The translations under genes were made by a program, and so were the position numbers. A stretch of DNA of 64,000 nt from Escherichia phage JS98: the sequence record NC_010105.1; one strand, 5' to 3'. This document shows, in pieces, positions 1 through 31,958 of this stretch (position 1 is its first letter; every line of letters begins with the position of its first letter). Under the pieces are notes generated by a model. It ran no database searches, was not told where the DNA came from, and worked only from the letters and a program-made list of their open reading frames with translations.

Positions 1-1701
<1,701 letters not shown>

Positions 1702-3838: not shown

Positions 3839-3846
3839 TATAAATA
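3839..3846 (+). promoter_or_regulatory. Late promoter TATAAATA upstream of gene 19
   Basis: Exact TATAAATA in the 18-19 intergenic region. Confidence 0.55.
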
Positions 3847-3859
3847 AATTAATCAGAAC

Positions 3860-3880
3860 GTTCCTGGTGTGGCCAGGAAC
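3860..3880 (+). other. Perfect 8-bp stem hairpin (GTTCCTGG-tgtgg-CCAGGAAC) in the gene 19 leader
   Basis: Inverted repeat read directly; no U-tract, so more likely an RNA structure/stability element than a terminator. Confidence 0.4.
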
Positions 3881-3898
3881 TGACTTATGAGGCATCCC

Positions 3899-4390: not shown

Positions 4391-4391
4391 G

Positions 4392-4399
4392 TATAAATA
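4392..4399 (+). promoter_or_regulatory. Late promoter TATAAATA upstream of gene 20
   Basis: Exact TATAAATA immediately after gene 19 stop. Confidence 0.55.
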
Positions 4400-4407
4400 G
4401 AATTATA

Positions 4408-4425
4408 AAGGAGCTTCGGCTCCTT
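4408..4425 (+). other. Stem-loop AAGGAGC-ttcg-GCTCCTT (UUCG tetraloop) in 19-20 intergenic region
   Basis: 7-bp stem with TTCG loop seen directly; sits between the late promoter and gene 20 start. Confidence 0.45.
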
Positions 4426-4447
4426 ATCCCATTCATCGGAGACTCTA

Positions 4448-6022
4448 ATGGCAAACTTTAATACAATATTAAGTTTTCTTAAGCCATGGGCTAATGAAGA
4501 CGAAAAAGAATATAAACAACAAATTAATAACAATTTAGAGTCTGTCACTGCACCTAAGCTTGATGATGGCGCTCGCGAAATTGAAACCCAAGAGCAAAAT
4601 ATTCCTTATAACGCTCTTATGCAACAAATGTTTGGTAGTAATGAGCCTGAAGTTAAAAACACCAGGGAACTCATTGATACCTACCGTAATTTGATGAACA
4701 ACTATGAAGTCGATAACGCAGTTCAAGAAATTGTGTCTGACGCTATTGTCTACGAGGATGATAAAGAAGTAGTTGCATTAAATTTAGACGGGACAGATTT
4801 CAGTCAATCAATTAAAGATAAAATTTTGGCTGAATTTAGTGAAGTTTTGAATCTTTTAAATTTCCAACGTAAAGGCACTGACCATTTCCAACGTTGGTAT
4901 GTAGACTCGAGAATATTCTTTCATAAAATTATAAACCCTAAAAAAATGAAAGATGGCGTACAAGAGCTTCGACGCTTAGACCCGCGCCAAGTCCAATATA
5001 TTCGTGAAATTGTTACACGTATGGAAGATGGTGTTAAAATTGTAGATGGGTACCGCGAGTTTTTCGTTTACGATACTGGTCATGAAAGTTATTGTGCTGA
5101 TGGACGCATTTATTCAGCCGGGACTAAAGTTAAAATTCCTCGTGCTGCTGTAGTTTATGCACATTCTGGATTATTAGATTGTTGTGGTAAAAACATCATT
5201 GGCTATTTGCAACGTGCTATTAAGCCTGCAAACCAGCTTAAATTGATGGAAGACGCAATGGTCATCTACCGTATTACACGTGCTCCTGACCGTCGTGTGT
5301 TTTATATCGATACAGGTAATATGCCTTCACGTAAGGCTGCAGCACAAATGCAACATATCATGAACACGATGAAAAACCGTGTGGTATATGATGCTTCGAC
5401 CGGTAAAATTAAAAACCAGCAACATAATATGTCAATGACTGAAGACTATTGGTTGCAACGTCGAGACGGTAAAGCGGTAACAGAAGTTGATACCATGCCT
5501 GGCGCCACAGGTATGAGTGATATGGATGACGTTCTTTATTTCCGCACAGCACTTTATCGTGCACTGCGTATTCCAGAGTCACGTATCCCTAGTGAATCTA
5601 ATTCAGGCGTTATGTTTGATGCCGGTACAGCAATCACTCGTGATGAGTTGAAATTTGCTAAATGGATTCGACAGCTCCAAAATAAATTTGAAGAAATTTT
5701 CTTAGACCCATTAAAAACAAACCTCATTCTTAAAAAGATTATTACAGAAGATGAGTGGGAAAGAGAAATAAATAATATTAAAGTTACGTTCAACCGTGAT
5801 AGCTATTTCAGTGAAATGAAAGATGCGGAAATCATGGAACGCAGAATCAATATGCTAACGATGGCTGAACCATTTATTGGTAAGTATATTTCACATCAAA
5901 CGGCTATGAAAGATTTCCTTCAGATGACTGACGAAGAAATTAATCAAGAAGCTAAGCAAATTGAAGAAGAGTCTAAAGAGGCTCGTTTCCAAAACCCAGA
6001 TGAAGAAGAAGAGGATTTCTAA
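4448..6022 (+). CDS. 20: Portal vertex protein gp20
   Basis: 524 aa, same length as T4 gp20; gene order 19-20-67. Confidence 0.92.
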
Positions 6023-6297
6023 TGGAAGATTTAATCGAAGCTATTAAATCAAACGACCTCGTAGCAGTTCGTAAAGCAGCAGGCCCGCTTATCGAATCTC
6101 GAGTAGCCGCTTTGATTGAAGCCCGTAAAGCAGAAATTGCTCGCTCCGTTATGATTGAAGGCGAAGAAGCCGATAAAGATGACGAAGACGAAGATAAAGA
6201 CGAAAAATCCGATAAAGCAGATAAGAAAGACAAAAAAGAATCTGACGATGCGGATGAAGGTGATGACGACGATGAAGACGACGAGGACGACGAATAA
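6022..6297 (+). CDS. 67: Prohead core protein gp67-like with extended poly-acidic C-terminal tail
   Basis: Position between 20 and 68; 91 aa; last ~40 aa almost entirely D/E/K. Confidence 0.7.
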
Positions 6298-6725
6298 TGT
6301 TCCTTATCCCTGATGATTACGAATTAACTCTAGAAAGCGTAGAGGCCAAAATTCCAGAAGCACAGGGACGTTTTGCTACTCTTTCTGAAGCCCTCGAGAA
6401 AAGCGATATAAATAATCTTGTAGAGAACATGATTGCTGATGGTGATATCGATACAGCTATCGCCATTGCCTCTTTAAATGAAAATATGGCTCTTAACGAA
6501 TTTATCGTTAAGCATGTCTCTTCTAAAGGTGAGCTTACTCGTACTAAAGATATTAAAACCCGTCAACGCAACGCTTATCAAACGACTGGGTTGTCTAAAG
6601 CAAAACGCCGTCAGATTGCTCGCAAAGCGTCTAAAACCAAACGTGCTAACCCGTCTACTCAAGTACGTGCTGAACGTAAGCGTAAGAAAGCTCGTTCTAA
6701 ACGTAAAGCCTTTGGACTTAACTAA
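6297..6725 (+). CDS. 68: Prohead core protein gp68
   Basis: 142 aa, basic C-terminus, position before gene 21 as in T4. Confidence 0.7.
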
Positions 6726-7360
6726 TGAAACCTGAATTGCTCATCGAACATTGGGGACAACCAGGTGAAATTATCGATGGGGTTCCGATGTTGGAATCTC
6801 ATGATGGAAAAGATTCTGGACTTGCCCCGGGCCTTTATATAGAAGGCATATTCATGCAAGCCGAAGTGGTTAACCGTAATAAACGCCTTTATCCAAAACC
6901 TATTTTGGAAAAAGCTGTTGCTGATTATATGGCAGAACAGGTTGCTACTAAACAAGCTTTAGGAGAATTAAATCATCCGCCTCGTGCTAACGTCGACCCT
7001 ATGCAAGCCGCTATTATTATTGAAGATATGTGGTGGAAAGGTAATGACGTTTATGGACGTGCTCGTATTATTGAAGGCGACCATGGTCCTGGTGATAAAC
7101 TAGCTGCTAATATTAGAGCCGGTTGGGTGCCTGGTGTTAGTTCTCGTGGTCTAGGTTCTTTAACCGAAACCAATAAAGGATATAAGCGTGTAAACGAAGG
7201 TTATAAATTAACCGTCGGTGTTGATGCAGTATGGGGTCCATCTGCTCCTGATGCTTATGTAACTCCTAAACAAATTACAGAATCACAAACGGTAGATACC
7301 GATACCAGTGCCGATGACGCCTTTATGGCTCTCGCAGAGGCCATGAAAAAAGCGTTATAA
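6725..7360 (+). CDS. 21: Prohead core protease gp21
   Basis: 211 aa; [30 protein letters not shown]... matches T4 gp21. Confidence 0.92.
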   Translation: MKPELLIEHWGQPGEIIDGVPMLESHDGKDSGLAPGLYIEGIFMQAEVVNRNKRLYPKPILEKAVADYMAEQVATKQALGELNHPPRANVDPMQAAIIIEDMWWKGNDVYGRARIIEGDHGPGDKLAANIRAGWVPGVSSRGLGSLTETNKGYKRVNEGYKLTVGVDAVWGPSAPDAYVTPKQITESQTVDTDTSADDAFMALAEAMKKAL

Positions 7361-7363
7361 ATA
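7356..7363 (+). promoter_or_regulatory. Late promoter TATAAATA upstream of gene 22
   Basis: Exact TATAAATA overlapping gene 21 stop codon. Confidence 0.55.
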
Positions 7364-7390
7364 TTATTATCTAAACAACAGGACTACAAA

Positions 7391-8206
7391 ATGCTTAAAG
7401 AACAACTGATCGCCGAAGCACAGAATATTGATGCTTCCGTTGCTCTTGACAGTATTTTCGAATCAGTTAATATTTCTCCGGAAGCAAAAGAAACTTTCGG
7501 CACTGTATTCGAAGCTACCGTCAAGCAACACGCCGTTAAACTGGCTGAATCTCACATCGCTAAAATCGCTGAAAAAGCGGAAGAAGAAGTTGAGAAAAAT
7601 AAAGAAGAAGCTGAAGAAAAAGCTGATAAGAAAATCCAAGAAGCTGCCGGTCGTTTCCTTGACCACGTCGCTAAAGAATGGATGGCTGAAAACCAGCTGG
7701 CTGTTGATAAAGGTATTAAAGCCGAACTGTTCGAATCCATGTTGATGGGTATGAAAGAACTGTTTGTTGAACACAATGTGGTTGTTCCAGAAGAAGCAGT
7801 GGATGTTGTTGCTGAAATGGAAGAAGAACTCCAAGAGCAGAAAGATGAAACCGCTCGTCTGTTCGAAGAAGTTGGTAAGCGTGATGCATATATTAATTAC
7901 GTACAGCGTGAAGTTGCGTTGACTGAAGCAACTAAAGACCTGACTGAATCTCAGAAAGAAAAAGTTAGTTCTCTGGTAGAAGGCATGGATTATTCCGATG
8001 CATTTGGTAAAAAAATTGGCGCTATCGTTGAAATGGTTAAAGGCCAGACTGACGTTGAAAAACCAATCACCGAAGCCGCTATAAATAAAACTGAAGACGA
8101 TGCTGCAGCACTGAATTATATTTCGGAAGCAGTTGAAGAAAAAGGCACTAAGCCTACCCTGTCCTTCGCGGACCTGTCTGCAATCGCAGCATCTCGAATT
8201 TCTTAA
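7391..8206 (+). CDS. 22: Prohead scaffolding core protein gp22
   Basis: 271 aa, highly acidic coiled-coil-like; position between 21 and 23. Confidence 0.88.
   Translation: MLKEQLIAEAQNIDASVALDSIFESVNISPEAKETFGTVFEATVKQHAVKLAESHIAKIAEKAEEEVEKNKEEAEEKADKKIQEAAGRFLDHVAKEWMAENQLAVDKGIKAELFESMLMGMKELFVEHNVVVPEEAVDVVAEMEEELQEQKDETARLFEEVGKRDAYINYVQREVALTEATKDLTESQKEKVSSLVEGMDYSDAFGKKIGAIVEMVKGQTDVEKPITEAAINKTEDDAAALNYISEAVEEKGTKPTLSFADLSAIAASRIS
8080..8087 (+). promoter_or_regulatory. Late promoter TATAAATA for gene 23, inside the 3' end of gene 22
   Basis: Exact TATAAATA ~140 nt upstream of gene 23 ATG; T4 gene 23 late promoter also lies within gene 22. Confidence 0.55.
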
Positions 8207-8227
8207 TTTAATAAGGTTATACAACAC

Positions 8228-9787
8228 ATGAAAAAGAATGCATTAGTTCAAAAATGGTCCGCTCTGCTGGAAAACGAAGCTCTTCCTGAAATCGTTGGTG
8301 CTTCTAAACAAGCTATCATCGCTAAAATTTTCGAAAACCAGGAACAAGACATCCTGACTGCTCCAGAATATCGTGACGAAAAAATCTCCGAAGCATTTGG
8401 TTCTTTCCTGACTGAAGCTGAAATCGGTGGTGACCACGGTTATGATGCTACCAATATCGCAGCTGGCCAGACTTCTGGTGCTGTAACTCAGATTGGGCCG
8501 GCAGTAATGGGTATGGTTCGTCGTGCTATTCCTCATCTGATTGCTTTTGATATTTGTGGTGTTCAGCCTCTGAATAACCCTACCGGTCAGGTATTTGCAC
8601 TGCGTGCAGTATATGGTAAAGACCCTATCGCTGCAGGCGCTAAAGAAGCTTTCCATCCGATGTATGCTCCGAACGCTATGTTCTCTGGTCAGGGTGCTGC
8701 TGAAACTTTCGAAGCACTGGCTGCAAGCAAAGTTCTGGAAGTTGGTAAAATTTATTCTCACTTCTTCGAAGCTACCGGTTCTGCACACTTCCAGGCTGTT
8801 GAAGCTGTAACCGTTGATGCAGGCGCTACTGATGCCGCTAAACTGGATGCTGCTGTTACCGCTCTGGTTGAAGCTGGTCAGCTGGCTGAAATCGCTGAAG
8901 GTATGGCTACTTCTATCGCAGAACTTCAGGAAGGTTTCAACGGTTCTACCGATAACCCGTGGAACGAAATGGGCTTCCGCATCGACAAACAAGTTATCGA
9001 AGCTAAATCTCGTCAGCTGAAAGCAAGCTACTCTATCGAACTGGCACAGGACCTTCGTGCAGTACACGGTATGGATGCAGATGCTGAACTGTCCGGTATC
9101 CTTGCTACCGAAATTATGCTCGAAATCAACCGTGAAGTTATCGATTGGATTAACTACTCTGCACAGGTTGGTAAATCTGGTATGACCAACACCGTTGGCG
9201 CTAAAGCTGGTGTGTTTGACTTCCAGGACCCGATTGATATCCGTGGTGCTCGTTGGGCCGGTGAGAGCTTTAAAGCCCTTCTGTTCCAGATTGATAAAGA
9301 AGCAGCCGAAATCGCTCGTCAGACCGGTCGTGGTGCTGGTAACTTCATCATCGCTTCCCGTAACGTAGTTAACGTACTGGCTGCAGTTGATACTTCTGTA
9401 AGTTATGCAGCTCAAGGTCTGGGTCAGGGTTTCAACGTTGACACAACCAAAGCAGTATTTGCCGGTGTTCTTGGTGGTAAATATCGTGTTTACATCGACC
9501 AGTATGCTCGTTCCGATTACTTCACCATCGGTTATAAAGGTTCCAACGAAATGGACGCAGGTATCTACTATGCTCCGTACGTTGCGCTGACTCCGCTGCG
9601 TGGTTCCGATCCGAAGAACTTCCAACCGGTAATGGGCTTCAAAACTCGTTACGGTATCGGTATTAACCCGTTCGCTGACCCAGCTGCTCAGGCGCCTACC
9701 AAACGTATTCAGAATGGTATGCCTGACATCGTTAACAGCCTCGGTCTGAATGGTTACTTCCGTCGCGTATATGTTAAAGGTATCTAA
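8228..9787 (+). CDS. 23: Major capsid protein gp23
   Basis: 519 aa (T4 gp23 521 aa); position and sequence match. Confidence 0.95.
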   Translation: MKKNALVQKWSALLENEALPEIVGASKQAIIAKIFENQEQDILTAPEYRDEKISEAFGSFLTEAEIGGDHGYDATNIAAGQTSGAVTQIGPAVMGMVRRAIPHLIAFDICGVQPLNNPTGQVFALRAVYGKDPIAAGAKEAFHPMYAPNAMFSGQGAAETFEALAASKVLEVGKIYSHFFEATGSAHFQAVEAVTVDAGATDAAKLDAAVTALVEAGQLAEIAEGMATSIAELQEGFNGSTDNPWNEMGFRIDKQVIEAKSRQLKASYSIELAQDLRAVHGMDADAELSGILATEIMLEINREVIDWINYSAQVGKSGMTNTVGAKAGVFDFQDPIDIRGARWAGESFKALLFQIDKEAAEIARQTGRGAGNFIIASRNVVNVLAAVDTSVSYAAQGLGQGFNVDTTKAVFAGVLGGKYRVYIDQYARSDYFTIGYKGSNEMDAGIYYAPYVALTPLRGSDPKNFQPVMGFKTRYGIGINPFADPAAQAPTKRIQNGMPDIVNSLGLNGYFRRVYVKGI

Positions 9788-9802
9788 TATACACCTTATT
9801 AT

Positions 9803-9830
9803 GGGAGACTTCGGTCTCCCATTCTTGTTT
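9803..9830. terminator. Bidirectional rho-independent terminator after gene 23 (GGGAGAC-ttcg-GTCTCCC then T-run)
   Basis: 7-bp GC-rich stem, UUCG loop, followed by ATTCTTGTTT; lies between convergent genes. Confidence 0.75.
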
Positions 9831-9835
9831 CTATA

Positions 9836-10117
9836 CTATGCAATCTTAACACGACGGTTGATGATATCACGGAAGTCAATACGATTTTCTTGGATTTTCA
9901 GCCAGTTACCAGATTTGTCTTTGGTATGGGTAGAGTATTCACCGTTCCACCAGAAGTCGGTAGCATAAGCCATGGCTTCGTATTTCTTAACTAGTGCATT
10001 CACTGCATTACCGTTAGGATTGGAACCATATTTTTCTACCAGGGCTTTGATGTCTTTATCAAGAGCGGAAAGAGTAGTACGAATAAAGTTTAACTTGTTC
10101 ATTTTTAATCTCCTCAT
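9836..10117 (-). CDS. Hypothetical small early protein (93 aa) inserted between genes 23 and 24
   Basis: ORF with its own upstream PeSL-like early promoter; no recognisable motif. Confidence 0.5.
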   Translation of the reverse strand: MRRLKMNKLNFIRTTLSALDKDIKALVEKYGSNPNGNAVNALVKKYEAMAYATDFWWNGEYSTHTKDKSGNWLKIQENRIDFRDIINRRVKIA

Positions 10118-10165
10118 GTTTTGATAGGTCTATAGTAACATGTGATAACCTTGCTGTAAACAACT
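10118..10165 (-). promoter_or_regulatory. PeSL-like early promoter cassette (GTTTAC-N17-TACTAT, then AGACCTATCAA) driving 9836..10117
   Basis: -35 at 10156..10161, -10 at 10133..10138 (minus-strand reading), 17-bp spacer. Confidence 0.5.
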
Positions 10166-10203: not shown

Positions 10204-11484
10204 ATGGCAAAGATTAACGAATTACTGCGCGAGTCAACAACTACTTCTAGCAACTCATTGGGTCGCCCTAATCTTGTTGCTTTGACCCGTGCTACAACCA
10301 AATTGATTTACCGTGATATTATTGCTGAACAACGTACTAGCCAGCCTATTGCTGCATTGTATGGTGTCAAATATCTTACTCCTGATAATGAATTTAGCTT
10401 CCAAACTGGTGCCGTTTATGGCGGTGAAGTTGGTTCTAAAGACCGTGAAACTATCCCAGAACTCACAGATAAGGCCCAGGCTATTGCCAAGGGTGAATAT
10501 TTCAAGTATCAGAACATAGTTTATAAGGCTCTTCAAGCAAGCCCACTCGCATCCACTAGCGCTACAGAATTGGCTGAGGCCCTTCAAGAAGGTTTGGTGT
10601 CATTAACATGTCGTCTGGTTCCTGATGCGGCTCACACAGAGAAATTCGAAGCAGGTGATGTTGAAATTAGTAATGCAGTATTCCAGGTTAATAAATGGAA
10701 CGCACCTGTTAAGTCTCGTAAACTTAAAACCGCTTTGACTGTAGAACTAGCCCAAGACATGGAATCCAATGGCTTTGACGCCCCTGCGTTCTTAGAAGAC
10801 CTTTTAGCCACTGTAATGGCTGATGAAATCAATAAAGACGTACTACAATCCTTGATTACCGTATCTAAACGTTACAAAGTAACTGGTGTATCTGATAATG
10901 GTATTATTGATTTGTCCTATAATTCCGCCCCAGAAAGTGCACGTAAATTATATGAAATGGTTTGTGAGATGAATTCTGAAATTCAGAAAACCACTTCTTA
11001 TTCAGGTACGTTTGTTGTCGCATCTAGTCGTGCTGCTGCTATGCTCGCTGGTTCAGGTTGGTTGAAACATAAACCAGAAGATGAAGCTTGGCTCCCAGAA
11101 ACTGCTTACGGTTATTTGATTAATGGATTGCCTGTATTCTGTGATGTTAATAGTCCTTTAGATTATGTTATCGTAGGCGTTAAAGAAGATTACGGCGGTA
11201 ATGAAGTAGTTGGTTCTATTTTCTATGCTCCATATACCGAAGGTCTGGATTTAGACGACCAAGAACATGTTGGTGCGTATAAAGTTATTGTAGACCCTGA
11301 TAGTTTACAACCGGCTATTTCTCTGATGGTTCGTTATGCACTTTCAGCAAACCCATATACCGTTGCTAAAGATGATAAAGAAGCTCGTGTTATAGACGCA
11401 ACTAATATGGATTTAATGGCAGGTCAGAGTAACATGTCTTATCTGCTTGGTGTTAAACTTCCTCCGATTATTTACGAGGCATAA
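10204..11484 (+). CDS. 24: Capsid vertex protein gp24 (copy 1, closest to T4 gp24)
   Basis: 426 aa; MAKINELLRESTTT...GRPNLVALTRATTKLIY matches T4 gp24. Confidence 0.9.
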   Translation: MAKINELLRESTTTSSNSLGRPNLVALTRATTKLIYRDIIAEQRTSQPIAALYGVKYLTPDNEFSFQTGAVYGGEVGSKDRETIPELTDKAQAIAKGEYFKYQNIVYKALQASPLASTSATELAEALQEGLVSLTCRLVPDAAHTEKFEAGDVEISNAVFQVNKWNAPVKSRKLKTALTVELAQDMESNGFDAPAFLEDLLATVMADEINKDVLQSLITVSKRYKVTGVSDNGIIDLSYNSAPESARKLYEMVCEMNSEIQKTTSYSGTFVVASSRAAAMLAGSGWLKHKPEDEAWLPETAYGYLINGLPVFCDVNSPLDYVIVGVKEDYGGNEVVGSIFYAPYTEGLDLDDQEHVGAYKVIVDPDSLQPAISLMVRYALSANPYTVAKDDKEARVIDATNMDLMAGQSNMSYLLGVKLPPIIYEA

Positions 11485-12768
11485 ATGAAAAAGATTAATG
11501 CATTAATACAAGAATCAACTTTGACGGCGGCCAACCAGGTCGCCCGTCCTAATCTTCTTTCATATACCCAGGCAACTAATAAAAGAATTTTTAAAGCCCT
11601 TGTTGCTGAACAAAAAACTACTCAACCTGTTGCAGCATTATATGGTGTCCGTGTTTTAAACCCAGACGATAAAATGACTTATCTCGGCGGAGCCACTTTT
11701 GCAGGCGAAATTGGTATGTTCGAACGTAAAAACATTCCTGAGTTCACCGATAAAGACGAAGCATATGCTGTTGGCGATATGTTCCAATTCGAAAGTGTGG
11801 TTTTCAAGGTATTAGAAGCTTCTCCGTTTGCAGGAACAACTGAAACCGATTTGAGTGAAGTTATTTCAGAAGCTATTGCCGCGGGCCATATTCGTATGAT
11901 GTCTGATGCAGCCTTTACCAATAAATTTGAAAAAGGTCATCCTGAGATTGCTGAAGCAGGGTTCCGTATTGATAAGTGGCAGACTGAAGTTAAATCGCGT
12001 AAACTTAAAACTTCTTTGACTGTGGAACTGGCCCAGGATTTAGAATCCAACGGGTTTAATGCACCGGACTTTATAGACAATATTTTGGCTATTCAAATGG
12101 CTGAAGAAATTAATAAAGACGTATTACAGTCCTTAATTACAGTAAGTTCTCGTTTTAAAGTCCAAGGAGTTTCTGAGAAAGGTGTCTTGAACTTAACAGA
12201 CCCACAATACGATAACGCCCAAGACCGAGCACGTACCTTGTATTACTATATGTGTGAAATGAATTCTGCTGTTCAACGCCAGACTTCGTTTGCAGGTACT
12301 TATGCAGTAGCTTCTTCTCGCTGCGCTGCTATTTTAGCTGCATCCGGTTGGGTTGAGAAAAAAGAAGACCAAGACGAATTAGCTTATGGCGTATTAAAGA
12401 ACGGTCTACCACTTTATGCTGATATGAACAGCCCGTGTGATTATGTTATTGTCGGTGTAAATGCTCAGATGGGTGAAGGGCAGACGGTCGCATCTTTGTA
12501 TTATGCGCCTTATACGGAAGGGCTCGAAGAGGTTGATGATGAAGGTGATACTTCAGTAGGTGAATTCAAGGTTATTGTAGACCCGGATTCATTGCAACCT
12601 ACCATATCTTTATTGGCTCGGTATGCATTGACTGCGAATCCTTATACCGTCGCTAAAGACGACAAAGAAGCTCGTATTATTGATGGTGCGGATATGGACA
12701 AAATGGCTAATCAAAGTCAATTGAGTTCTTATCTTGGTGTAAAACTTCCTCCATTGGATAAAAACTAA
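11485..12768 (+). CDS. Capsid vertex protein gp24 paralog (copy 2, divergent)
   Basis: 427 aa, immediately downstream; alignable to copy 1 along full length with conserved blocks (KSRKLKT..TVELAQD, INKDVLQSLITVS, VIVDPDSLQP, ANPYTVAKDDKEAR). Confidence 0.85.
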   Translation: MKKINALIQESTLTAANQVARPNLLSYTQATNKRIFKALVAEQKTTQPVAALYGVRVLNPDDKMTYLGGATFAGEIGMFERKNIPEFTDKDEAYAVGDMFQFESVVFKVLEASPFAGTTETDLSEVISEAIAAGHIRMMSDAAFTNKFEKGHPEIAEAGFRIDKWQTEVKSRKLKTSLTVELAQDLESNGFNAPDFIDNILAIQMAEEINKDVLQSLITVSSRFKVQGVSEKGVLNLTDPQYDNAQDRARTLYYYMCEMNSAVQRQTSFAGTYAVASSRCAAILAASGWVEKKEDQDELAYGVLKNGLPLYADMNSPCDYVIVGVNAQMGEGQTVASLYYAPYTEGLEEVDDEGDTSVGEFKVIVDPDSLQPTISLLARYALTANPYTVAKDDKEARIIDGADMDKMANQSQLSSYLGVKLPPLDKN

Positions 12769-25649: not shown

Positions 25650-25940
25650 TTATTTACGGAACGAAATGAAACCTGCTGCTGTCATTAATGGCTGCTTTTT
25701 AACAAAGACCGTAATAGAAATAGGAGCTTCAGATTCAAGCTGGCCGGTTACTACACCATTAAAGATATTTTCAGTTTGTTCGGGTTGTGAAAAATTTTCA
25801 ATTGGACGTAAGTCGAACTGCTTGTCTTCGCCGAAAACTCGACGTAATTCATTACCGACTGCACTGTCGAACTCTTCAGAAGCAGGGATAACGTTTTCAA
25901 CTACCAGTTCTTGACCGTTAAAGCGGAATGCAGATTTCAT
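25650..25940 (-). CDS. Hypothetical protein (96 aa), alt-downstream small ORF
   Basis: ORF between alt and gene 54, where T4 carries alt.-1/-2/-3. Confidence 0.45.
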   Translation of the reverse strand: MKSAFRFNGQELVVENVIPASEEFDSAVGNELRRVFGEDKQFDLRPIENFSQPEQTENIFNGVVTGQLESEAPISITVFVKKQPLMTAAGFISFRK

Positions 25941-25997
25941 AATGTTCTCCTCATGTTTGTGTAAGGTAATAGTACCACATCCTTGTGGTGTTGTAAA

Positions 25998-28124
25998 CTA
26001 CATTTTGAATTTATTTGGTAAAGAAGAGATGTCCAAAGATGCAGCAAGGATTTCCATAGCCTCATTACTTTCTGAAACAGATTCTGAAACTAGGAATTCT
26101 TTAAACCCGTTCATCAATTTAACTTCACCGGTTTCCATCAGATGGTCACCATCGTAAACGGACTCACTGAGTTCTGAAGGAGATGTCACTGTAGCTTCCA
26201 TAAGGTATTTGTGAGATACTCTATCATTCATAGCAAAAGCCGCTACTTTATCAACCTTCAACAATAATCCTCGCGGAAGGATAATTTCTGCTTCTTCGGA
26301 ATATTCTGTAAGGTCACCAGGAGCGATAACTTTAACTGCTTCAGCACCTCGAATAACCATACCGATTTCAGCAATCCTGTCTGCAGGGCCTTCAGGTGCA
26401 ATTGGATTACCGAACTCGTCTTCTTCCCATTCTACCTCTTCATCATCAACTTCGCCTACATCAGATGAACTACCACTGGCTAATTTAAACAACTCATCAG
26501 CGGAGGATAAAGAACCTTCATCACCAACAAAAACTGCTTGGTTGTCGAGGGCCATATAATTTTTACCAAATTCGCCAAAGATATTAGGCTTTAATGAAGC
26601 AGACACAAAGTTCTTAAAGTAAAATGTTTTGTTATCAATATTATGGCGCAGAATTTTGTATGGTAAATCCTGACCACGATACAAAATAGTACCCTTAGGA
26701 AGTTTAATACCCTTGGTAAATGCTGAGTCTAAATCCTTAATCAATTTAATAGCTGTTGTATTGTTTTCGGATTCAGGTTTACCTAAAAGGAATAAGTTCA
26801 TAGGAGCATATTCAGCCGCACAATATTCAATAATGGCATTGCTTTCGTCTTTGGTCAAGCCCTTAGGTTTAATGAGCTCGCCTGAATAAGCATATGCATC
26901 GCTAATAGAATCGTTAATCAGTTTATAAACGGCTTCCATAGCGAAAGCAATTCGGGATGCTTTCTCTGAAGGAGACCCCTGAAAACGGGCACTCAGGTTA
27001 TTAACAATTCTCTTAATAATATCCAGACTATTGGTAGTATTGATTTGAGAAAGGCCACTTAAAAGTCTATCGACTTCCGTATTAAAAAATGCCATATTAT
27101 TAGAGTAAATTTCAAACCCTTGTTTATCTCTATTAGCATAATTTAGTTTAAATTTACTATCAGTCATTAAAGCGTGCGTGAGAGCAATGGTGTATCTAAA
27201 GTTGGCAAGGTCCTCACTCTTAGATTTAAACTGAGAGGCCTGACGCATTTTAGTAATAGCACCTTTTTTAAAGTTCTGACTAATCTGCTCAATACCTTCG
27301 TTCTCAGGGCCTTCGGCCGAGTGAACAGGGACAGAAGCTTCAAACTCGTTATAAACCTGCAATTCTTTAGGTGATAAAGTTTCAGGTTCGGCAGTAGAAT
27401 ACTGCGCTGCTGCAGCCATACGACGGGAAATCTTAGTACGAGAAATAACAGCCTTATCGGTACGTTTCTCTTCAACCTGTGCAATAGATGCTGCTACGGC
27501 TTCGACCTTACTTACAGCCTGGCCGGTTTTCTTAGAAACATAAACTTCACCGACTTTAGACTCAACCTTGGTATAAAGGTCCGCATCAATTTCAGGCATA
27601 CCCTTGATATCTTCGATATTAGTGCCACGACGTGCTAAAAGAACGTATGTATGTTTACCACTAAACTGGAACATATCATCGACAACTTTAAACTTACCAC
27701 CGGTACGGGCCATCGCCAAACGAGCTAATACACGCTGAACAGTAGGGCCTTTACCTTTCATTTTCTTGGTAGGGAAACGGAATAAAACCGCATCCATTTT
27801 AAGTTTATTTACTTGTTCGTATATCGTATCGAAAATAGTATTCAATGTACCAAGTGGGTCGGAACCAAGGCCACCTTTGAGTTCAGCCGGGGCACCCTTG
27901 CTCGACAAACTCATTAAAATAACATGGACATATTTGTCGCCTGGCTTAACCATTTTAATAGCGTCTCCTTGAGACGCATAAGATACCATACGAGCAACCA
28001 GGTTATCGTTACCCGGTGCATGGATAGAGAAAATCTGTGGAATACCGGAACCCGGTTTAAGATTTGTTACTGGATAGTTTTTAGCGGAATCACTATCAAA
28101 AACCTCGTTTAAATTTTCCATCAT
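25998..28124 (-). CDS. Alt-family ADP-ribosyltransferase, paralog 2 (708 aa)
   Basis: Shares N-terminal (M.E.LNEVF.S) and C-terminal blocks with the upstream alt: RGQ/RAQ, FYFKNFVSASL, EIILPRGLL.K.DK. Confidence 0.85.
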   Translation of the reverse strand: MMENLNEVFDSDSAKNYPVTNLKPGSGIPQIFSIHAPGNDNLVARMVSYASQGDAIKMVKPGDKYVHVILMSLSSKGAPAELKGGLGSDPLGTLNTIFDTIYEQVNKLKMDAVLFRFPTKKMKGKGPTVQRVLARLAMARTGGKFKVVDDMFQFSGKHTYVLLARRGTNIEDIKGMPEIDADLYTKVESKVGEVYVSKKTGQAVSKVEAVAASIAQVEEKRTDKAVISRTKISRRMAAAAQYSTAEPETLSPKELQVYNEFEASVPVHSAEGPENEGIEQISQNFKKGAITKMRQASQFKSKSEDLANFRYTIALTHALMTDSKFKLNYANRDKQGFEIYSNNMAFFNTEVDRLLSGLSQINTTNSLDIIKRIVNNLSARFQGSPSEKASRIAFAMEAVYKLINDSISDAYAYSGELIKPKGLTKDESNAIIEYCAAEYAPMNLFLLGKPESENNTTAIKLIKDLDSAFTKGIKLPKGTILYRGQDLPYKILRHNIDNKTFYFKNFVSASLKPNIFGEFGKNYMALDNQAVFVGDEGSLSSADELFKLASGSSSDVGEVDDEEVEWEEDEFGNPIAPEGPADRIAEIGMVIRGAEAVKVIAPGDLTEYSEEAEIILPRGLLLKVDKVAAFAMNDRVSHKYLMEATVTSPSELSESVYDGDHLMETGEVKLMNGFKEFLVSESVSESNEAMEILAASLDISSLPNKFKM

Positions 28125-30212
28125 TTACCCTTGGATGAATTTTTCTGGTATGCCATAGAGGTCTATGCATGAAGCCAAAAGAGGCAGTACGTCAAACCGT
28201 GTAGATTTAACAAATGAATCAAAAGATACAGGGCTTTCGGAAGTATCGAAGTCATCTTGGTATACGACCAACTCACCAGTTTCCATTAGTACGTCACCAT
28301 CATACACTACAGATTCTTGAAGCTCATCTGATGTCATAACTTCAGCTTGAATAAATTTATTGTTAGACACCGCCCCAGAACCAGTATTGGCTGATGCATC
28401 CACGATTTTATCTATTTTTACAAGTAGCCCGCGTGGTAAAATTATTTCCTTTTCGTTGGCATGCATGCTTAATTGGCCAGGATAAATCACGTTAACCTTA
28501 TGAGCGCCACTAATAGCCCAGCCAACATCAACACGGATTTGATCCGGTGCATACATATGTGTACGCACTTGACTAGCCGAGATGGTAACGCCTTCGTCAT
28601 TATTATCAATGTTTAATTCTTTTCGAACATCATCGGAAGCAAGACCAATAGCCGCATTCTCTTTAAAGCCACCAAAAATGATTGGAGCCAATGAGGTTGA
28701 AACATAGTTTCTAAAATAGAATACCTTATTTTTAACTAATGCTTCGTAGATAGGCGCGCGCAAAGATTGTGCTCTATAAACCATTATTCCTTCAGGTAAA
28801 CGGTCACCATTTTTAAAGGCAGAATCCATTCCATCAATAGCACGTTTAACTTCGCTTTCGTCCAAAACTTCATAAAAGCCCGGTTTATAACGGCCAAGAA
28901 GGACATTGTTAATATCAATATAAGCTGAAGAGGCGTATTCTCTGATAGCTCGTTTTTCTGCAAGTGTATATTGTTTAGGGTCTCGAGATGTTGTTATATT
29001 AAGAATTTCTCTAGTTGATTCTATAGCGTATGTATACATTATCTTAGACAAGAATGAAGACTTACGTTGTTTCCATACTCTTTCACTGTTTTCATTCAAT
29101 ATCTCTTTTTCCAAATGGAAATTGTCTTTTCTATAATCTTCAAACCAATCACTTTTAATAGATTCTGCGATTTCATTAGCAGCTTCAACAAAGGCGGCTA
29201 AAGCTTTAACTGACGTGGTTTTTTCATTTTTAATTTTTTTGACAAATTTTTCTAAAGAAGAGTTAATTTTATCACCGTAAGAAACTTCATCCGCAAATTT
29301 AAATGAATCATCCATAGTATTATAAATTTTAAAATCAATAGCCGTAGCCAGCTTATCCTTAGCTGTTTCGGATGATAATGATAATTCAACTTCGGCTGCT
29401 TGTGGAATTAATTCCGCCGTAGCAGGCGCACTGAACTCATTGGCAGTTTGTTCATATTTCTGAAATAATTCACCTTCATTACGGTCTGCTTCTAATGACT
29501 GGCTTGCCGCAATCGCACGACGAGAAATCTTAGTCTTGGTTATAACCATTTTATCAGTGCGACGTTCTTCAACTTTAGCAATACTGCCGGCAATAGCGGT
29601 TTCTTTAGTAACCTGAGCGCCTTCTTTTTTAGAAATATAAACTTCACCAACATCAGAATCTACCTTAGTATATAATTCGGCATTAATTCCAGGCATACCT
29701 TTGATATCTTCGATATCAGCTTGTTTACGAACTACTAGGATATAAGTATGTTTACCGGTAAATTGGTACATGGCTGGAACTACTTTAAAACGTCCACCGG
29801 TTTTCTGTGCTACCAAACGTTGGATAATCCGTTGGACAATAGGTCCTTGTCCTTTCATTTTCTTGGTTGGAAAACGGAACATCACAGCATCCATACGAAG
29901 CTTTTTAACTTGTTCGAATACTACGTCGAAAATGGTATTAATAGCATCAATAGGAGTAGGGCCTAATCCACCTTTAAGTTCGGCTGGAGTACCTTTAGCT
30001 GATAAACTCATCAAAATAACGTGGGCATATTTATCACCTAATTTAACCTGTTTAATAGCATCGCCTTCAGAGGCATAAGATACCATACGAGCAACTAATT
30101 GGGATTCGGCGTCGCCAATCTTCCAAATCTGGGGTACTTTAAGTTTTGGGTTTAAGTTTACAGTAGGCAGGGTGCCTTCGGACTCAAACACCTCATTCAA
30201 TTGTTCGGTCAT
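28125..30212 (-). CDS. alt: Alt ADP-ribosyltransferase (capsid-packaged, injected), paralog 1 (695 aa)
   Basis: Position upstream of gene 30 as in T4; R-S-E type ART motifs (YRAQ, FYFRNYVSTSL, EKEIILPRGLLVKIDK). Confidence 0.85.
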   Translation of the reverse strand: MTEQLNEVFESEGTLPTVNLNPKLKVPQIWKIGDAESQLVARMVSYASEGDAIKQVKLGDKYAHVILMSLSAKGTPAELKGGLGPTPIDAINTIFDVVFEQVKKLRMDAVMFRFPTKKMKGQGPIVQRIIQRLVAQKTGGRFKVVPAMYQFTGKHTYILVVRKQADIEDIKGMPGINAELYTKVDSDVGEVYISKKEGAQVTKETAIAGSIAKVEERRTDKMVITKTKISRRAIAASQSLEADRNEGELFQKYEQTANEFSAPATAELIPQAAEVELSLSSETAKDKLATAIDFKIYNTMDDSFKFADEVSYGDKINSSLEKFVKKIKNEKTTSVKALAAFVEAANEIAESIKSDWFEDYRKDNFHLEKEILNENSERVWKQRKSSFLSKIMYTYAIESTREILNITTSRDPKQYTLAEKRAIREYASSAYIDINNVLLGRYKPGFYEVLDESEVKRAIDGMDSAFKNGDRLPEGIMVYRAQSLRAPIYEALVKNKVFYFRNYVSTSLAPIIFGGFKENAAIGLASDDVRKELNIDNNDEGVTISASQVRTHMYAPDQIRVDVGWAISGAHKVNVIYPGQLSMHANEKEIILPRGLLVKIDKIVDASANTGSGAVSNNKFIQAEVMTSDELQESVVYDGDVLMETGELVVYQDDFDTSESPVSFDSFVKSTRFDVLPLLASCIDLYGIPEKFIQG

Positions 30213-30234: not shown

Positions 30235-30242
30235 TATTTATG
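30235..30242 (-). promoter_or_regulatory. Variant late promoter (CATAAATA on minus strand) upstream of alt
   Basis: One mismatch to TATAAATA, ~22 nt upstream of alt ATG, followed by GAGGA SD. Confidence 0.4.
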
Positions 30243-30248
30243 CCATAA

Positions 30249-30264
30249 AAGGCCCGAAGGCCTT
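30249..30264 (-). terminator. Hairpin AAGGCC-cgaa-GGCCTT plus U-run on minus strand, upstream of alt promoter
   Basis: 6-bp GC stem; minus-strand TTTT follows. Confidence 0.5.
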
Positions 30265-30433
30265 AAAGTGGTAGCAACGTACGATATACTTCGAATGTCG
30301 GGCCTTTTTCATAGCCGTCAAACACGTCTTTAAAATCGGCAAAAGCTATTTCATCCTCAAACTCTAGGATGATTTGAGAGGCCGCAGTGTTATTTGTGTT
30401 TGTTACAACAATTGTTTCTAAATAAGCTTTCAT
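30263..30433 (-). CDS. Hypothetical small protein (56 aa from internal Met)
   Basis: ORF immediately after ligase stop; start chosen to avoid overlap. Confidence 0.35.
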   Translation of the reverse strand: MKAYLETIVVTNTNNTAASQIILEFEDEIAFADFKDVFDGYEKGPTFEVYRTLLPL

Positions 30434-30434: not shown

Positions 30435-31958
30435 TTATAGTCCAGTTTGAGACCAATCACCAAATACATCTTCAAATGTATCAGCTTCAGTTTTATCGAA
30501 ACGCCAACCTTTAATAATTGGAAGGAAAATACCTACAGTATCAGTACGTCCTTTAGAATGAACCCAACCATTACATTCACAGTCAGCAATACGTCCAATC
30601 AACTTACCTTCACGAGCTTGTTTCATAAGAAGTTCACGGTCTAAATCAGGGCGGTCTTCTAATGGAATCAACACCTTTTTACCTGATTTATCTTTCTTAT
30701 GGGTAGTATCTTTAAAGCCTGAGCCGCAGTCACTTGTAATTCGACGACAACGTGATACCAACTCGACACCGCCAAGTTTGTTAGGGTCCTTCGAGTGTTC
30801 ATAATAACCTACCACTTCTAAAGCGATATCGATTACTTCTTTGAACTTGATAAGATTCTTAGAACGGCGGTTTTCCCAGTAGGAGTCCATGTTCTTAAGG
30901 ATAATACCTTCCAGGCCTTGGTCGACATATTTCTTATAAACGACTTTAGCTTCGTCAAGATTATTGACCCATTGGTTTTCGATAGCTTCAACACGCGTTG
31001 TACCATGCAATACGACATTATGAGCAACCATAAGTTCTAAGGCAGTAAAGCGTACATCGTACTTATCGCCTTTAATTTTACCTTCGGAATATACGACATC
31101 CAATGGGACATAATCCCACGCCTGTAACACCATACCTGCTGCTTCGGTTGGGGTAATAGTTCCTTGAAGAGCCTTGTTAGCCAACCCGTTTGAAGTAGAA
31201 CGATCGGCTACGGTTTGGAATTCCTTGGCTTTACTTAATTCAGGAAGTTCCTCATCAAACATACTAAACAAATCATTAGATGCTTTAGGTTCTACTTTAG
31301 GAGTGTGGTAAACTAATTCGCCATCAATCATAACACCATTAGGATGGCGCTGTCGAGCTTCTTCGGTCATGGCCATTAATTCGGCCGCCAAAAGATTAAG
31401 CCCTTGGTATTCATTACCACCACGAGTAAGGAATGTTACGCCATCGTTACGAACTTCAGCAAAACAACGAGCACCGTCAGCTTTTAATTGGGCGAACGCG
31501 GGCCATTTAATATTTTTCTTAATCAAATCTTCATCATAAGAACTAGCCAACATTTGAGGTTGTTCAGGGATTAAACCTTTCCAAACCTTGTTAGCAATAG
31601 AAATCGATGCACCACATTCAAGGTCACGCATCATTACGCGACGTAATACCTCAGCGTCAGGACCCTTGGCATCAGCAATAATTTGGGCAAGCTCTTCAAT
31701 AGCAGCATTACCCGTAATCTTACGGGTGGCTAATGTGAACTCAGCGAAATCAAGAAGGTCTTCAAGTGTAATCATACCAAAGGATTGAGACGTAAATCCA
31801 GGTTCAGGCCACTTTTTAATACCGTAGTTCAGACGACGGGTATAAGCCATACGATATACACGTTTCAGAAGCTCGTTATCCTTTTCACGAGCAATAATAG
31901 CTTCTTTAGCTTTAGTAGAATCAATAGAAGCAATTTCGTTTAAAATATCTAAAATCAT
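30435..31958 (-). CDS. 30: DNA ligase gp30 (ATP-dependent)
   Basis: 507 aa; MILDILNEIASI...; adenylation motif KADGARCF; matches T4 ligase along length. Confidence 0.95.
   Translation of the reverse strand: MILDILNEIASIDSTKAKEAIIAREKDNELLKRVYRMAYTRRLNYGIKKWPEPGFTSQSFGMITLEDLLDFAEFTLATRKITGNAAIEELAQIIADAKGPDAEVLRRVMMRDLECGASISIANKVWKGLIPEQPQMLASSYDEDLIKKNIKWPAFAQLKADGARCFAEVRNDGVTFLTRGGNEYQGLNLLAAELMAMTEEARQRHPNGVMIDGELVYHTPKVEPKASNDLFSMFDEELPELSKAKEFQTVADRSTSNGLANKALQGTITPTEAAGMVLQAWDYVPLDVVYSEGKIKGDKYDVRFTALELMVAHNVVLHGTTRVEAIENQWVNNLDEAKVVYKKYVDQGLEGIILKNMDSYWENRRSKNLIKFKEVIDIALEVVGYYEHSKDPNKLGGVELVSRCRRITSDCGSGFKDTTHKKDKSGKKVLIPLEDRPDLDRELLMKQAREGKLIGRIADCECNGWVHSKGRTDTVGIFLPIIKGWRFDKTEADTFEDVFGDWSQTGL

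What the first reader, a model, noticed from the sequence alone, without database searches (positions are those of the whole stretch)
25998..30212. Tandem duplication of the alt ADP-ribosyltransferase gene
Two full-length Alt-like proteins (708 and 695 aa) are adjacent and co-oriented, sharing N-terminal and catalytic C-terminal motifs but diverged in the central region. T4 has a single alt, as far as I recall. The central region may specify packaging or target, so the two copies could modify different host proteins.
Basis: partly seen in the sequence, partly recalled or inferred. Interest (0 to 1): 0.5.

Follow-up and report, generated by a model that had tools for sequence, protein, structure and literature searches.

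The report
Two old Alt ADP-ribosyltransferase paralogs in tandem
This JS98-like T-even phage carries two adjacent, intact, long-diverged copies of the injected host-modifying enzyme Alt; the arrangement is already annotated in its relatives (altA/altB) and is also present in phage T2, and T4's single copy results from a deletion.

Summary
Two co-oriented Alt genes lie at 28125-30212 (AltA, 695 aa) and 25998-28121 (AltB, 707 aa from the conserved ATG). They are 41% identical, and both match the Alt family end to end.

It is not new. The window is a Dhakavirus, 99% identical to phage MN04. JS10 and IME08 records name the genes alta/altb, and Nolan et al. 2006 described alt paralogs. Phage T2 has the same layout. 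T4's alt.-1/alt.-2 is a frameshifted, 1.7-kb-deleted remnant of T2's second copy.

Both copies keep the Arg, Ser and ExE catalytic residues; AltB has SAS instead of STS. Both keep the two gp21 protease sites mapped in T4 Alt, and both are under purifying selection (dN/dS 0.03-0.11). They form one unit with a late-promoter-like element, no spacer between them, then alt.-3 and a terminator.

What I add: the genes are modular. N-domains cluster by phage genus, while the central, ART and C-terminal parts of AltB cluster by paralog. AltA's central+ART cassette has been exchanged between genera, with breakpoints near residue 240 and the C-terminal cleavage site.

Most likely both are packaged, injected effectors with different targets. 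Packaging and targets are inferred, not shown.

The parts
30263..30433 (-). alt.1 (56 aa), small gene between the DNA ligase gene (30435-31958) and altA
   Evidence: Annotated as alt.1 in JS10 and KIT01. Pfam PF24647 'Phage blade protein', E 1e-22.
30247..30264 (-). Hairpin AAGGCC-TTCG-GGCCTT plus T-run after alt.1 (terminator-like)
   Evidence: Read from the sequence. The same GGCCTTCGGGCC hairpin sits at the same place in T4, T2, JS10 and KIT01, with a variant in ATK48 and CF1.
30235..30242 (-). cATAAATA, positional homolog of the T4 late promoter TATAAATA, about 23 nt upstream of the altA ATG
   Evidence: T4, T2 and CF1 have an exact TATAAATA at the same place after the hairpin. Dhakavirus and Mosigvirus phages have cATAAATA. 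There is no exact TATAAATA in the locus. Function as a promoter is inferred.
28125..30212 (-). altA (695 aa): R480, S505-T-S, E587-K-E589
   Evidence: It is 97.8% identical to KIT01's upstream copy but only 70.6% to JS10 AltA.
30192..30212 (-). AltA N-terminal propeptide MTEQLNE, predicted gp21 cleavage after LNE-7
   Evidence: Aligns to T4 MELITE, which is cleaved at ITE-6 (PMC5694885; alignment).
29505..30191 (-). AltA N-domain (residues 8-236), genus-specific conserved module
   Evidence: 98% identical to JS10 AltA, 66-69% to AltB, 46% to T4.
28314..29504 (-). AltA exchangeable cassette: central helical region (28953-29504) plus ART domain (28314-28952)
   Evidence: Against JS10 AltA, nucleotide identity falls from 92-100% to 40-80% between about aa 240 and 616-635, then returns to 98-100%. 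The cassette is closest to Mosigvirus ATK48: 69% central, 80% ART. dS against KIT01 is 0.03-0.07 in the cassette versus 0.50 in the N-domain.
28128..28313 (-). AltA C-terminal propeptide (62 aa), predicted gp21 cleavage after ELQE-633
   Evidence: Aligns to T4 ELTE-619, after which 63 residues are removed according to mass spectrometry.
25998..28121 (-). altB (707 aa from the conserved ATG at 28121; 708 aa if the ATG at 28124 is used): R482, S507-A-S, E610-A-E612
   Evidence: It is 99.3% identical to JS10 AltB and 48% to T2's second paralog over the full length.
27408..28103 (-). AltB N-domain (residues 7-238); predicted alpha/beta fold
26862..27407 (-). AltB central all-helical region (residues 239-420), unrelated in sequence to AltA's
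   Evidence: 16% identity to AltA but 47% to T2 AltB. Helices at pLDDT 80-89. No Pfam match.
26163..26861 (-). AltB ART domain (residues 421-653)
26388..26483 (-). Acidic insertion specific to Dhakavirus AltB (residues ~547-578; 12 D/E and no K/R in 547-579), predicted disordered
   Evidence: Absent from T2 AltB and from all A-type copies. pLDDT below 50. Composition.
26001..26162 (-). AltB C-terminal propeptide (54 aa), predicted gp21 cleavage after ELSE-653
   Evidence: Alignment to T4 ELTE-619.
25650..25940 (-). alt.-3 (96 aa, DUF5498), last gene of the unit
   Evidence: Pfam PF17602, E 5e-34. Annotated alt.-3 in JS10. T4 alt.-3 C-terminal extension mutants escape CmdTAC (PMC11618068).
25620..25643 (-). 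Intrinsic terminator-like hairpin (10 bp stem) followed by TTTGTT... after alt.-3
   Evidence: Consensus scan and the sequence itself.

Best explanation
altA and altB are two ancient paralogs of the T-even internal head protein Alt. They are expressed from one late transcription unit: late-promoter-like element, altA, altB with no spacer, alt.-3, terminator.

Each protein has the same five parts:
- a short N-terminal propeptide ending in L-N-E;
- a conserved N-domain (~230 aa);
- a helical central region;
- an arginine-type R-S-ExE ADP-ribosyltransferase domain;
- a C-terminal propeptide of about 55-62 aa that begins at an E-L-x-E|S site.

The most likely mechanism has three steps.
1. Both proteins are built into the prohead core late in infection.
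2. The gp21 prohead protease trims both at both ends, as shown for T4 Alt. This would leave mature enzymes of about 70 and 71 kDa.
3. Both are injected with the DNA into the next host. There each ADP-ribosylates its own set of host proteins. The target set would be determined by the unrelated central helical domains and the different ARTT-loop regions, and in AltB also by an acidic disordered insertion.

Shown here: homology, intact catalytic motifs, conserved cleavage motifs, operon layout, purifying selection, the age and spread of the pair, and the modular evolutionary pattern.

Inferred: packaging, processing, injection, enzymatic activity and distinct targets.
For: Family and fold:
- Both copies cover the Alt PHROG end to end and hit PF03496.

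Catalytic residues:
- AltA has R480, S505(STS) and E587/E589. AltB has R482, S507(SAS) and E610/E612.
- S507, E610 and E612 are invariant, and R482 is nearly invariant, among 75 homologs.

Processing sites:
- T4 Alt is cut by gp21 at ITE-6 and LTE-619 (PMC5694885).
- The aligned sites are LNE|V in both copies, ELQE|S in AltA and ELSE|S in AltB.
- The same mapping reproduces T4's published mature mass of 68.2 kDa.
- A gp21-type protease and a gp22-type scaffold are encoded in the window. Both gp24 copies start with an (L/I)xE|S site at residue 10.

Operon:
- A conserved hairpin and cATAAATA lie where T4, T2 and CF1 have TATAAATA.
- The junction CAAGGrTAAATnATGGAA is conserved in Dhakavirus, T2 and the T4 remnant.
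- A terminator follows alt.-3.

Selection:
- dN/dS is 0.03-0.11 in every domain of both copies.

Age and spread:
- Synonymous sites between A and B are near saturation.
- T2 has the same pair.
- About 460 of 1220 Alt-bearing phage records hold a near-full-length match to AltB's effector half.

Different specificity:
- Central regions are 16% identical.
- The ARTT-region sequences differ: VNVIYPGQLSMHAN in AltA and VKVIAPGDLTEYSE in AltB.
- AltB has a 12-D/E disordered insertion.
- T4 Alt is known to have many targets, including RNAP alpha R265, MazF R84 and EF-Tu (PMC8120803).
Against: - No experimental data for either protein of this phage were found. Packaging, cleavage and activity are all inferred from motifs.
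- AltB's Ser motif is SAS, where the Thr is at least 90% conserved among homologs and T2's AltB has STS. Reduced or altered activity cannot be excluded.
- The promoter element deviates from the TATAAATA consensus at its first base, and the sigma-70 and terminator scans are no better than shuffled sequence.
Confidence: 0.65

Rival explanations
1. Redundant dosage duplication: the second copy only supplies more of the same enzyme to the capsid.
For: Same overall architecture, same operon and the same predicted processing sites.
Against: - The copies are 41% identical overall, 16% in the central region and 37-40% in the ART domain.
- Synonymous sites are near saturation.
- AltB is orthologous to T2's second copy across genera (47-58% in the central, ART and tail parts), so the two lineages have been kept apart for a long time.
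- Each copy is under its own purifying selection.
Confidence: 0.05
2. AltB is a catalytically weakened or inactive paralog. It would serve a non-enzymatic role, for example as a structural core component, a decoy, or a binder of host proteins through its acidic loop.
For: - STS is changed to SAS in all Dhakavirus AltB copies, whereas T2 AltB keeps STS.
- A 22-residue acidic disordered insertion lies inside the ART domain.
- T4 and the Mosigvirus phage examined (ATK48) do without a second copy.
Against: - The Arg, the first Ser and both Glu of ExE are retained.
- The ART domain is the most constrained part of AltB among Dhakaviruses: dN close to 0 and dN/dS 0.00-0.04.
- From general knowledge of R-S-E ARTs, not tested here: the first Ser is the conserved one and the motif is often written S-x-S.
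Confidence: 0.12
3. Only AltA is packaged and injected. AltB would act inside the producing cell late in infection, as ModA and ModB act within the same cell.
For: Nothing here shows directly that AltB is in virions. The predicted mature AltB is acidic (pI 5.9), unlike mature AltA (7.8) and T4 Alt (8.4).
Against: - AltB keeps the conserved N-domain and both gp21 site motifs.
- It is translationally abutted to altA behind the late-promoter-like element.
- Its N-domain co-varies with the phage genus just as AltA's does.
Confidence: 0.13
4. The pair arose independently in Dhakavirus and in Tequatrovirus (two separate duplications) rather than once in a common ancestor. This would explain why N-domains cluster by genus.
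For: In the N-domain tree T2-A groups with T2-B (bootstrap 84) and window-A with window-B (82). Within-genus identity is 66-68% and cross-genus identity is 42-47%.
Against: - The central, ART and C-terminal parts of AltB group with T2 AltB at bootstrap 100, 91 and 92.
- The gene order and the exact junction sequence are shared.
- Independent duplication would need the same foreign effector half to be captured twice at the same spot.
- Old gene conversion, or co-evolution of both N-domains with the same genus-specific head core, explains the N-domain tree more simply.
Confidence: 0.1

Closest known systems
altA/altB of Dhakavirus phages JS98, JS10, IME08 and MN04 (GenBank annotations)
   Same: These are the same genes. 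MN04 is 99.1% identical over the locus. JS10 AltB is 99.3% identical. Gene order is identical: 30, alt.1, alta, altb, alt.-3, 54.
   Different: The window's AltA carries a different central+ART cassette from JS10's AltA: 36% and 62% identity in those parts, against 98% in the N-domain and the tail.
Bacteriophage T4 Alt (gpAlt, P12726), an internal head protein and arginine-specific ADP-ribosyltransferase
   Same: - End-to-end homology and the same R-S-ExE motifs.
- Both gp21 cleavage sites.
- The same locus and the same upstream hairpin and late-promoter position.
   Different: - T4 Alt is 44% identical to AltA and 33% to AltB.
- T4 has only a decayed remnant of the second gene.
- T4 Alt's effector half is only 52% identical even to that of T2 AltA, so T4's known targets cannot simply be transferred.
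Phage T2 alt plus T2_202 (annotated 'hypothetical protein')
   Same: The same tandem layout with the same 3-nt junction. T2_202 is the ortholog of AltB: 48% identity over the full length, including the otherwise unique central region.
   Different: T2's AltB has STS and lacks the acidic insertion. T2's N-domains resemble each other (68%) rather than the window's (42-47%).
C3-like, VIP2/iota-like and Vis R-S-E ADP-ribosylating toxins (Pfam PF03496)
   Different: Sequence identity is 16-25%. Alt proteins add the N-domain, the helical central region and two protease-removed propeptides. They are delivered by phage capsid ejection, not by secretion or a binary B component.
Polymorphic toxin and MuF-fused phage effector systems (Zhang et al. 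2012, PMC3482391; Iyer et al. 2017 and 2022, PMC5512222 and PMC9503650)
   Same: A conserved N-terminal part is coupled to a variable, recombining C-terminal effector part. In a 75-sequence sample the pairing of N-domain types and cassette types is many-to-many.
   Different: - No MuF domain.
- No orphan C-terminal cassettes and no immunity gene were identified.
- The variable part is always an ART of the same family rather than unrelated toxin folds.
- The extra copies are complete genes.

Membership tests
T-even Alt family (PHROG 802; PF26846 Tevenvirinae_ADPRT + PF03496) | End-to-end sequence homology to Alt | tested here: met
   Both proteins align to PHROG 802 positions 1-674 of 674, E 1e-252 and 1e-258. 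All database homologs carry PF03496 plus PF26846.
T-even Alt family (PHROG 802; PF26846 Tevenvirinae_ADPRT + PF03496) | Locus between DNA ligase (gene 30)/alt.1 and alt.-3/gene 54 | tested here: met
   Window order: ligase 30435-31958, alt.1, altA, altB, alt.-3, then gp54, gp48 and gp29 homologs on the other strand.
T-even Alt family (PHROG 802; PF26846 Tevenvirinae_ADPRT + PF03496) | gp21 prohead-protease sites at both termini (T4: ITE-6 and LTE-619) | tested here: met
   Motifs LNE|V, ELQE|S and ELSE|S align to the T4 sites. This is motif conservation only; cleavage itself was not observed.
T-even Alt family (PHROG 802; PF26846 Tevenvirinae_ADPRT + PF03496) | Late expression from a T4-type late promoter (TATAAATA) | tested here: inconclusive
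   cATAAATA sits at the position where T4, T2 and CF1 have TATAAATA. There is no exact consensus in the locus.
T-even Alt family (PHROG 802; PF26846 Tevenvirinae_ADPRT + PF03496) | Packaged in the head (about 40 copies in T4) and injected with the DNA | not testable with these tools
   Needs virion proteomics. No such data for a Dhakavirus were found in the searchable literature, and the JS98 genome paper is not held.
T-even Alt family (PHROG 802; PF26846 Tevenvirinae_ADPRT + PF03496) | ADP-ribosylates RNA polymerase alpha Arg265 and other host proteins | not testable with these tools
   A biochemical property known for T4 Alt only.
R-S-E (cholera-toxin-like, C3/VIP2 clade) mono-ADP-ribosyltransferases | Catalytic Arg, S-T-S motif and E-x-E motif | tested here: met
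   AltA has R480, STS 505-507 and EKE 587-589. AltB has R482, SAS 507-509 (Thr replaced by Ala) and EAE 610-612.
R-S-E (cholera-toxin-like, C3/VIP2 clade) mono-ADP-ribosyltransferases | ART fold | tested here: met
   [not shown]
Polymorphic toxin systems | Conserved N-terminal delivery region with recombining variable C-terminal effector | tested here: met
   - Sharp breakpoints at about aa 240 and about aa 606-635 in two genera.
- 60 of 134 pairs with N-domains at least 90% identical have ART domains at most 65% identical.
- Pairing of N-domain and cassette types is many-to-many.
- dS differs more than 10-fold within one gene.
Polymorphic toxin systems | Downstream orphan toxin cassettes and cognate immunity genes | tested here: not met
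   The extra copies are complete genes with their own N-domains. T4's remnant is an N-terminal piece, not a C-terminal cassette. No immunity-like gene was identified, and alt.-3 and alt.1 have no such annotation.
GNAT acyl-CoA N-acyltransferases (considered for the N-domain) | GNAT fold with sequence-detectable family membership | tested here: not met
   [not shown]

The most novel reading that the evidence does not exclude
The alt locus of T-even phages is a combinatorial effector locus, with two kinds of part.

1. A delivery frame that tracks the phage genus. It consists of the N-terminal propeptide and N-domain, and in AltA also the C-terminal propeptide. It probably co-evolves with the head core.

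2. An effector cassette (central helical region plus ART domain) carried inside that frame. AltA's cassette has been exchanged between genera by recombination near residue 240 and near the C-terminal protease site.

Unequal crossing-over between the repeated frames would vary the copy number from one to three. Each phage would then inject its own combination of ART specificities, possibly tuned to host defences such as toxin-antitoxin systems.
Probability: 0.5. Interest if true: 0.5.

Novelty: already known. Interest (0 to 1): 0.25.

Why it matters
As a finding it is ordinary. The tandem alt genes are annotated in this phage's relatives and have been discussed since 2006.

It still has some value. 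All Alt biochemistry comes from T4, which turns out to be the reduced case: it has one gene plus a remnant. T4's effector half is also only about 52% identical even to that of T2's first copy. Results such as RNAP alpha R265 or MazF R84 modification therefore cannot be assumed for AltA or AltB of other T-even phages, many of which are used in phage therapy collections.

The second paralog (AltB, or T2_202) is present in several hundred sequenced phages. I found no functional study of it in the literature I could search.

Tried and rejected
- **Recent gene conversion between the A and B N-domains: rejected.** Four-fold synonymous sites are 45% identical against 35% expected by chance, and the longest shared word is 23 nt.
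- **Family assignment for the central regions: none.** Only noise-level Pfam hits were found.
- **Solved structure of any Alt relative by sequence: none**.
- **NCBIfam and PADLOC:** no NCBIfam hit for any of the four proteins tested. PADLOC gave nothing for the Alt proteins or alt.-3, and only a noise-level hit for alt.1.
- **N-domain fused to a non-ART payload: inconclusive.**
  - The exhaustive search found only 71 cluster representatives, nearly all Alt-sized.
  - Four outliers have no Pfam domain and match the Alt PHROG only over the N-domain.
  - The best case is P0172, 1142 aa, next to a ligase gene fragment. BLASTP shows a weak ART-like stretch (22-24% identity, E down to 3e-7) right after its N-domain, so it is not a clean non-ART example.
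- **Literature on virion proteomics of two Alt copies, or on alt mosaicism: nothing relevant**. The JS98 genome paper and the T4 genome review are not held.
- **Biopython NG86 timed out**. I replaced it with my own implementation.

Full report
**1. Observation**

The two ORFs are present on the minus strand at the reported coordinates: 28125-30212 (695 aa, here AltA) and 25998-28124 (708 aa, here AltB).
- They are 41% identical over the full length, E = 7e-152.
- Both hit Pfam ADPrib_exo_Tox.
- Both cover the PHROG 'Alt-like RNA polymerase ADP-ribosyltransferase' from end to end.

At the junction the window reads GGG-TAA-ATG-ATG. JS10, KIT01 and T2 have only the second ATG. AltB therefore most likely starts at 28121 (707 aa), as annotated in MN04 and JS10.

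**2. Identity of the phage and prior annotation**

- The locus is 99.1% identical to Escherichia phage MN04, classified as Dhakavirus JS98.
- GenBank records of JS10 and IME08 already name the genes alta and altb.
- Several Dhakaviruses carry three tandem copies: KIT01, UGJNEcP3/4, WG01 and fDHCT2.
- Nolan et al. 2006 (PMC1524935) reported that T4 alt.-1/alt.-2, RB49 ORF183c and 44RR ORF188c are paralogous duplications of alt, and that 44RR has a full-length second copy.
- The T4 record itself notes that alt.-1 and alt.-2 'reflect an old duplication of the first part of gene alt'.

The finding is therefore already known.

**3. Age and spread**

AltB's effector half (central region plus ART plus tail) finds near-full-length matches in about 460 of 1220 Alt-bearing phage records. 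About 42 of these are Dhakavirus-type (at least 80% identity). Most of the rest are Tequatroviruses at about 49%, including T2.

T2 has the same order: ligase, alt.1, alt (697 aa), T2_202 (685 aa, 'hypothetical protein'), alt.-3, 54, 48, 29. T2_202 is 48% identical to AltB over the full length, including the central region that is otherwise unique to AltB.

In T4 the stretch after alt matches T2_202 residues 1-116 at about 96.5% identity across a frameshift. T2 locus positions 4140-5831 are missing from T4. T4's single alt is thus a derived state.

Mosigvirus ATK48 has one copy. Moonvirus CF1 has two, the second split into two ORFs.

**4. Anatomy**

Alignment and AlphaFold2 models give this layout:
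- an N-terminal propeptide of 6-7 residues;
- an alpha/beta N-domain, up to about residue 236;
- a helical linker and an all-helical central region, to about residue 420;
- the ART domain;
- a C-terminal tail.

Catalytic residues are intact:

| | Arg | Ser motif | ExE |
|---|---|---|---|
| AltA | R480 | S505-T-S | E587-K-E589 |
| AltB | R482 | S507-A-S | E610-A-E612 |

The Thr-to-Ala change, and a 22-residue acidic insertion that is predicted disordered, are specific to Dhakavirus AltB. T2's AltB has STS and no insertion.

**5. Processing**

Mass spectrometry showed that T4 Alt is cut by the gp21 prohead protease after ITE-6 and after LTE-619. This removes 63 C-terminal residues and leaves a 68.2 kDa protein (PMC5694885).

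In my alignment both window proteins keep both sites: LNE|V at the N-terminus, and ELQE-633|S (AltA) or ELSE-653|S (AltB). Applied to T4, the same mapping gives 68.2 kDa exactly. For the window it predicts mature proteins of 69.9 kDa (pI 7.8) and 71.1 kDa (pI 5.9).

The window encodes a gp21-type protease and a gp22-type scaffold. Its two gp24 copies both start with an (L/I)xE|S site at residue 10, so the cleavage logo is in use in this phage. Cleavage and packaging of the two Alt proteins remain inferences.

**6. Expression unit**

- Upstream of altA lie a hairpin plus T-run and then cATAAATA. T4, T2 and CF1 have TATAAATA at the same place. No exact TATAAATA occurs in the locus.
- altA's stop codon abuts altB's start, and this junction sequence is conserved in Dhakavirus, T2 and T4's remnant.
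- alt.-3 (DUF5498) follows, and then a strong terminator-like hairpin.

**7. Selection**

Nei-Gojobori dN/dS among Dhakavirus orthologs is 0.03-0.11 in every domain of both copies. Neither copy is decaying.

**8. Modular evolution (my addition)**

Per-domain neighbour-joining trees are incongruent.
- N-domains cluster by genus. T4-A, T2-A and T2-B group at bootstrap 84. All Dhakavirus and Mosigvirus copies group at 82. Within-genus A versus B identity is 66-68%, and cross-genus identity is 42-47%.
- The central, ART and tail parts of AltB cluster by paralog. Window AltB groups with T2 AltB at bootstrap 100, 91 and 92.

AltA's central+ART cassette is allelic.
- Window AltA against JS10 AltA is 98% identical in the N-domain and tail but 36% and 62% in the central and ART parts.
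- JS10's cassette matches T2 AltA (68% and 93%), although their N-domains are only 47% identical.
- The window's cassette matches Mosigvirus ATK48 (69% and 80%).
- T4 Alt against T2 AltA shows the same pattern: 99%, 52% and 98% for the N-domain, cassette and tail.

The breakpoints are sharp and shared by both genera: about aa 240, and about aa 606-635 next to the C-terminal cleavage site.

dS within one gene differs more than 10-fold. For window AltA against KIT01 it is 0.50 in the N-domain, against 0.03 in the central region and 0.07 in the ART domain.

In a 75-sequence database sample, 60 of 134 pairs with N-domains at least 90% identical have ART domains at most 65% identical. The pairing of N-domain clusters and cassette types is many-to-many.

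Synonymous sites between the A and B N-domains are near saturation, so any homogenisation is old.

In three-copy phages the middle gene has a B-like N-domain (88-89%) and an A-like tail (65%). That is the product expected from unequal crossing-over between B and A, but this is an inference.

**9. The N-domain**

- It is a small, phage-restricted family. Only 71 cluster representatives among 1.84 billion match it, always at the protein's N-terminus. The precomputed Pfam name is PF26846 Tevenvirinae_ADPRT.
- Foldseek against viral models finds, besides Alt proteins and split N-fragments, large uncharacterised multi-domain proteins of unrelated phages at E 1e-6 to 1e-4 and TM about 0.45-0.5. Weaker hits (E 3e-3 to 1e-2) are annotated with deaminase or zeta-toxin domains.
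- This fits a delivery-module role but does not prove it. The cleanest candidate for a non-ART payload, P0172, turned out to have a weak ART-like stretch.

**10. Verdict**

This is a known, ancient and widespread pair of Alt paralogs, with T4 as the reduced exception.

The most likely function is two packaged, protease-processed, injected ADP-ribosyltransferases with different host targets. Confidence is about 0.65 overall: high for the genetics, and moderate for packaging and target divergence.

The cassette-exchange pattern is the only part that may be new. I found no description of it in the searchable literature, but that library lacks the key subscription papers.

Noticed in passing
window 10204-11484 and 11485-12768 (+): The head vertex gene (gp24-like; it hits the PHROG for major head protein) is also tandemly duplicated: 426 and 427 aa, 56% identical. 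Both copies start with an (L/I)xE|S protease-type site at residue 10.
   Followed up: partly
L004 (T4 KJ477685) 4556-4902: T4's alt.-1/alt.-2 region matches residues 1-116 of T2's second Alt paralog (T2_202) at about 96.5% identity, with a frameshift near residue 55. About 1.7 kb of the T2 gene (L007 4140-5831) is deleted in T4.
   Followed up: yes
L003 (KIT01) 5526-7571; L006 (fDHCT2) 8089-10134: Three-copy Dhakaviruses carry a middle Alt gene (681 aa). Its N-domain is B-like (88-89%) and its C-terminal propeptide is A-like (65%), but its central+ART cassette resembles neither. This is the pattern expected from unequal crossing-over followed or preceded by a cassette exchange.
   Followed up: partly
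window 26388-26483 (-), AltB residues ~547-578: A 22-residue insertion rich in Asp and Glu (12 D/E and no K/R in residues 547-579) lies inside the ART domain between the Ser motif and ExE. It is predicted disordered, is present only in Dhakavirus AltB, and has no explanation.
   Followed up: partly
window 25650-25940 (-): alt.-3 (96 aa, DUF5498) is the last gene of the altA-altB unit. In T4, C-terminal extension mutants of Alt.-3 escape the CmdTAC defence system by blocking CmdA degradation, while wild-type Alt.-3 has no known function (PMC11618068).
   Followed up: partly
[not shown]
   Followed up: partly
L009 552-3980 (ENA ERZ27297857 contig k141_536389): A 1142-aa protein lies immediately downstream of a DNA ligase gene fragment, which is the alt position. 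It has the Alt N-domain, a weakly ART-like stretch at residues ~290-474, and about 670 further residues with no family or PDB match.
   Followed up: partly
L008 (Citrobacter phage CF1) 3350-4528 and 4525-5472: In Moonvirus CF1 the second Alt paralog is split into two overlapping ORFs (392 and 315 aa). Several other phages have 'split' or N-fragment-only Alt genes (BFVD hits; P0121, P0122). Decay of the second copy therefore seems recurrent.
   Followed up: no
window 25954-25996 (-), between altB and alt.-3: A small hairpin (ACCACA-AGGA-TGTGGT) lies just after the altB stop codon and before the alt.-3 ribosome-binding site. Its role, if any, is unknown.
   Followed up: no
L007 (T2) 1696-3789 versus L004 (T4) 2504-4552: T2's first alt gene and T4's alt are 99% identical in the N-domain and 98% in the C-terminal propeptide, but only 52% identical across the central and ART regions. 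The biochemically studied T4 enzyme is therefore not representative even within its own genus.
   Followed up: yes
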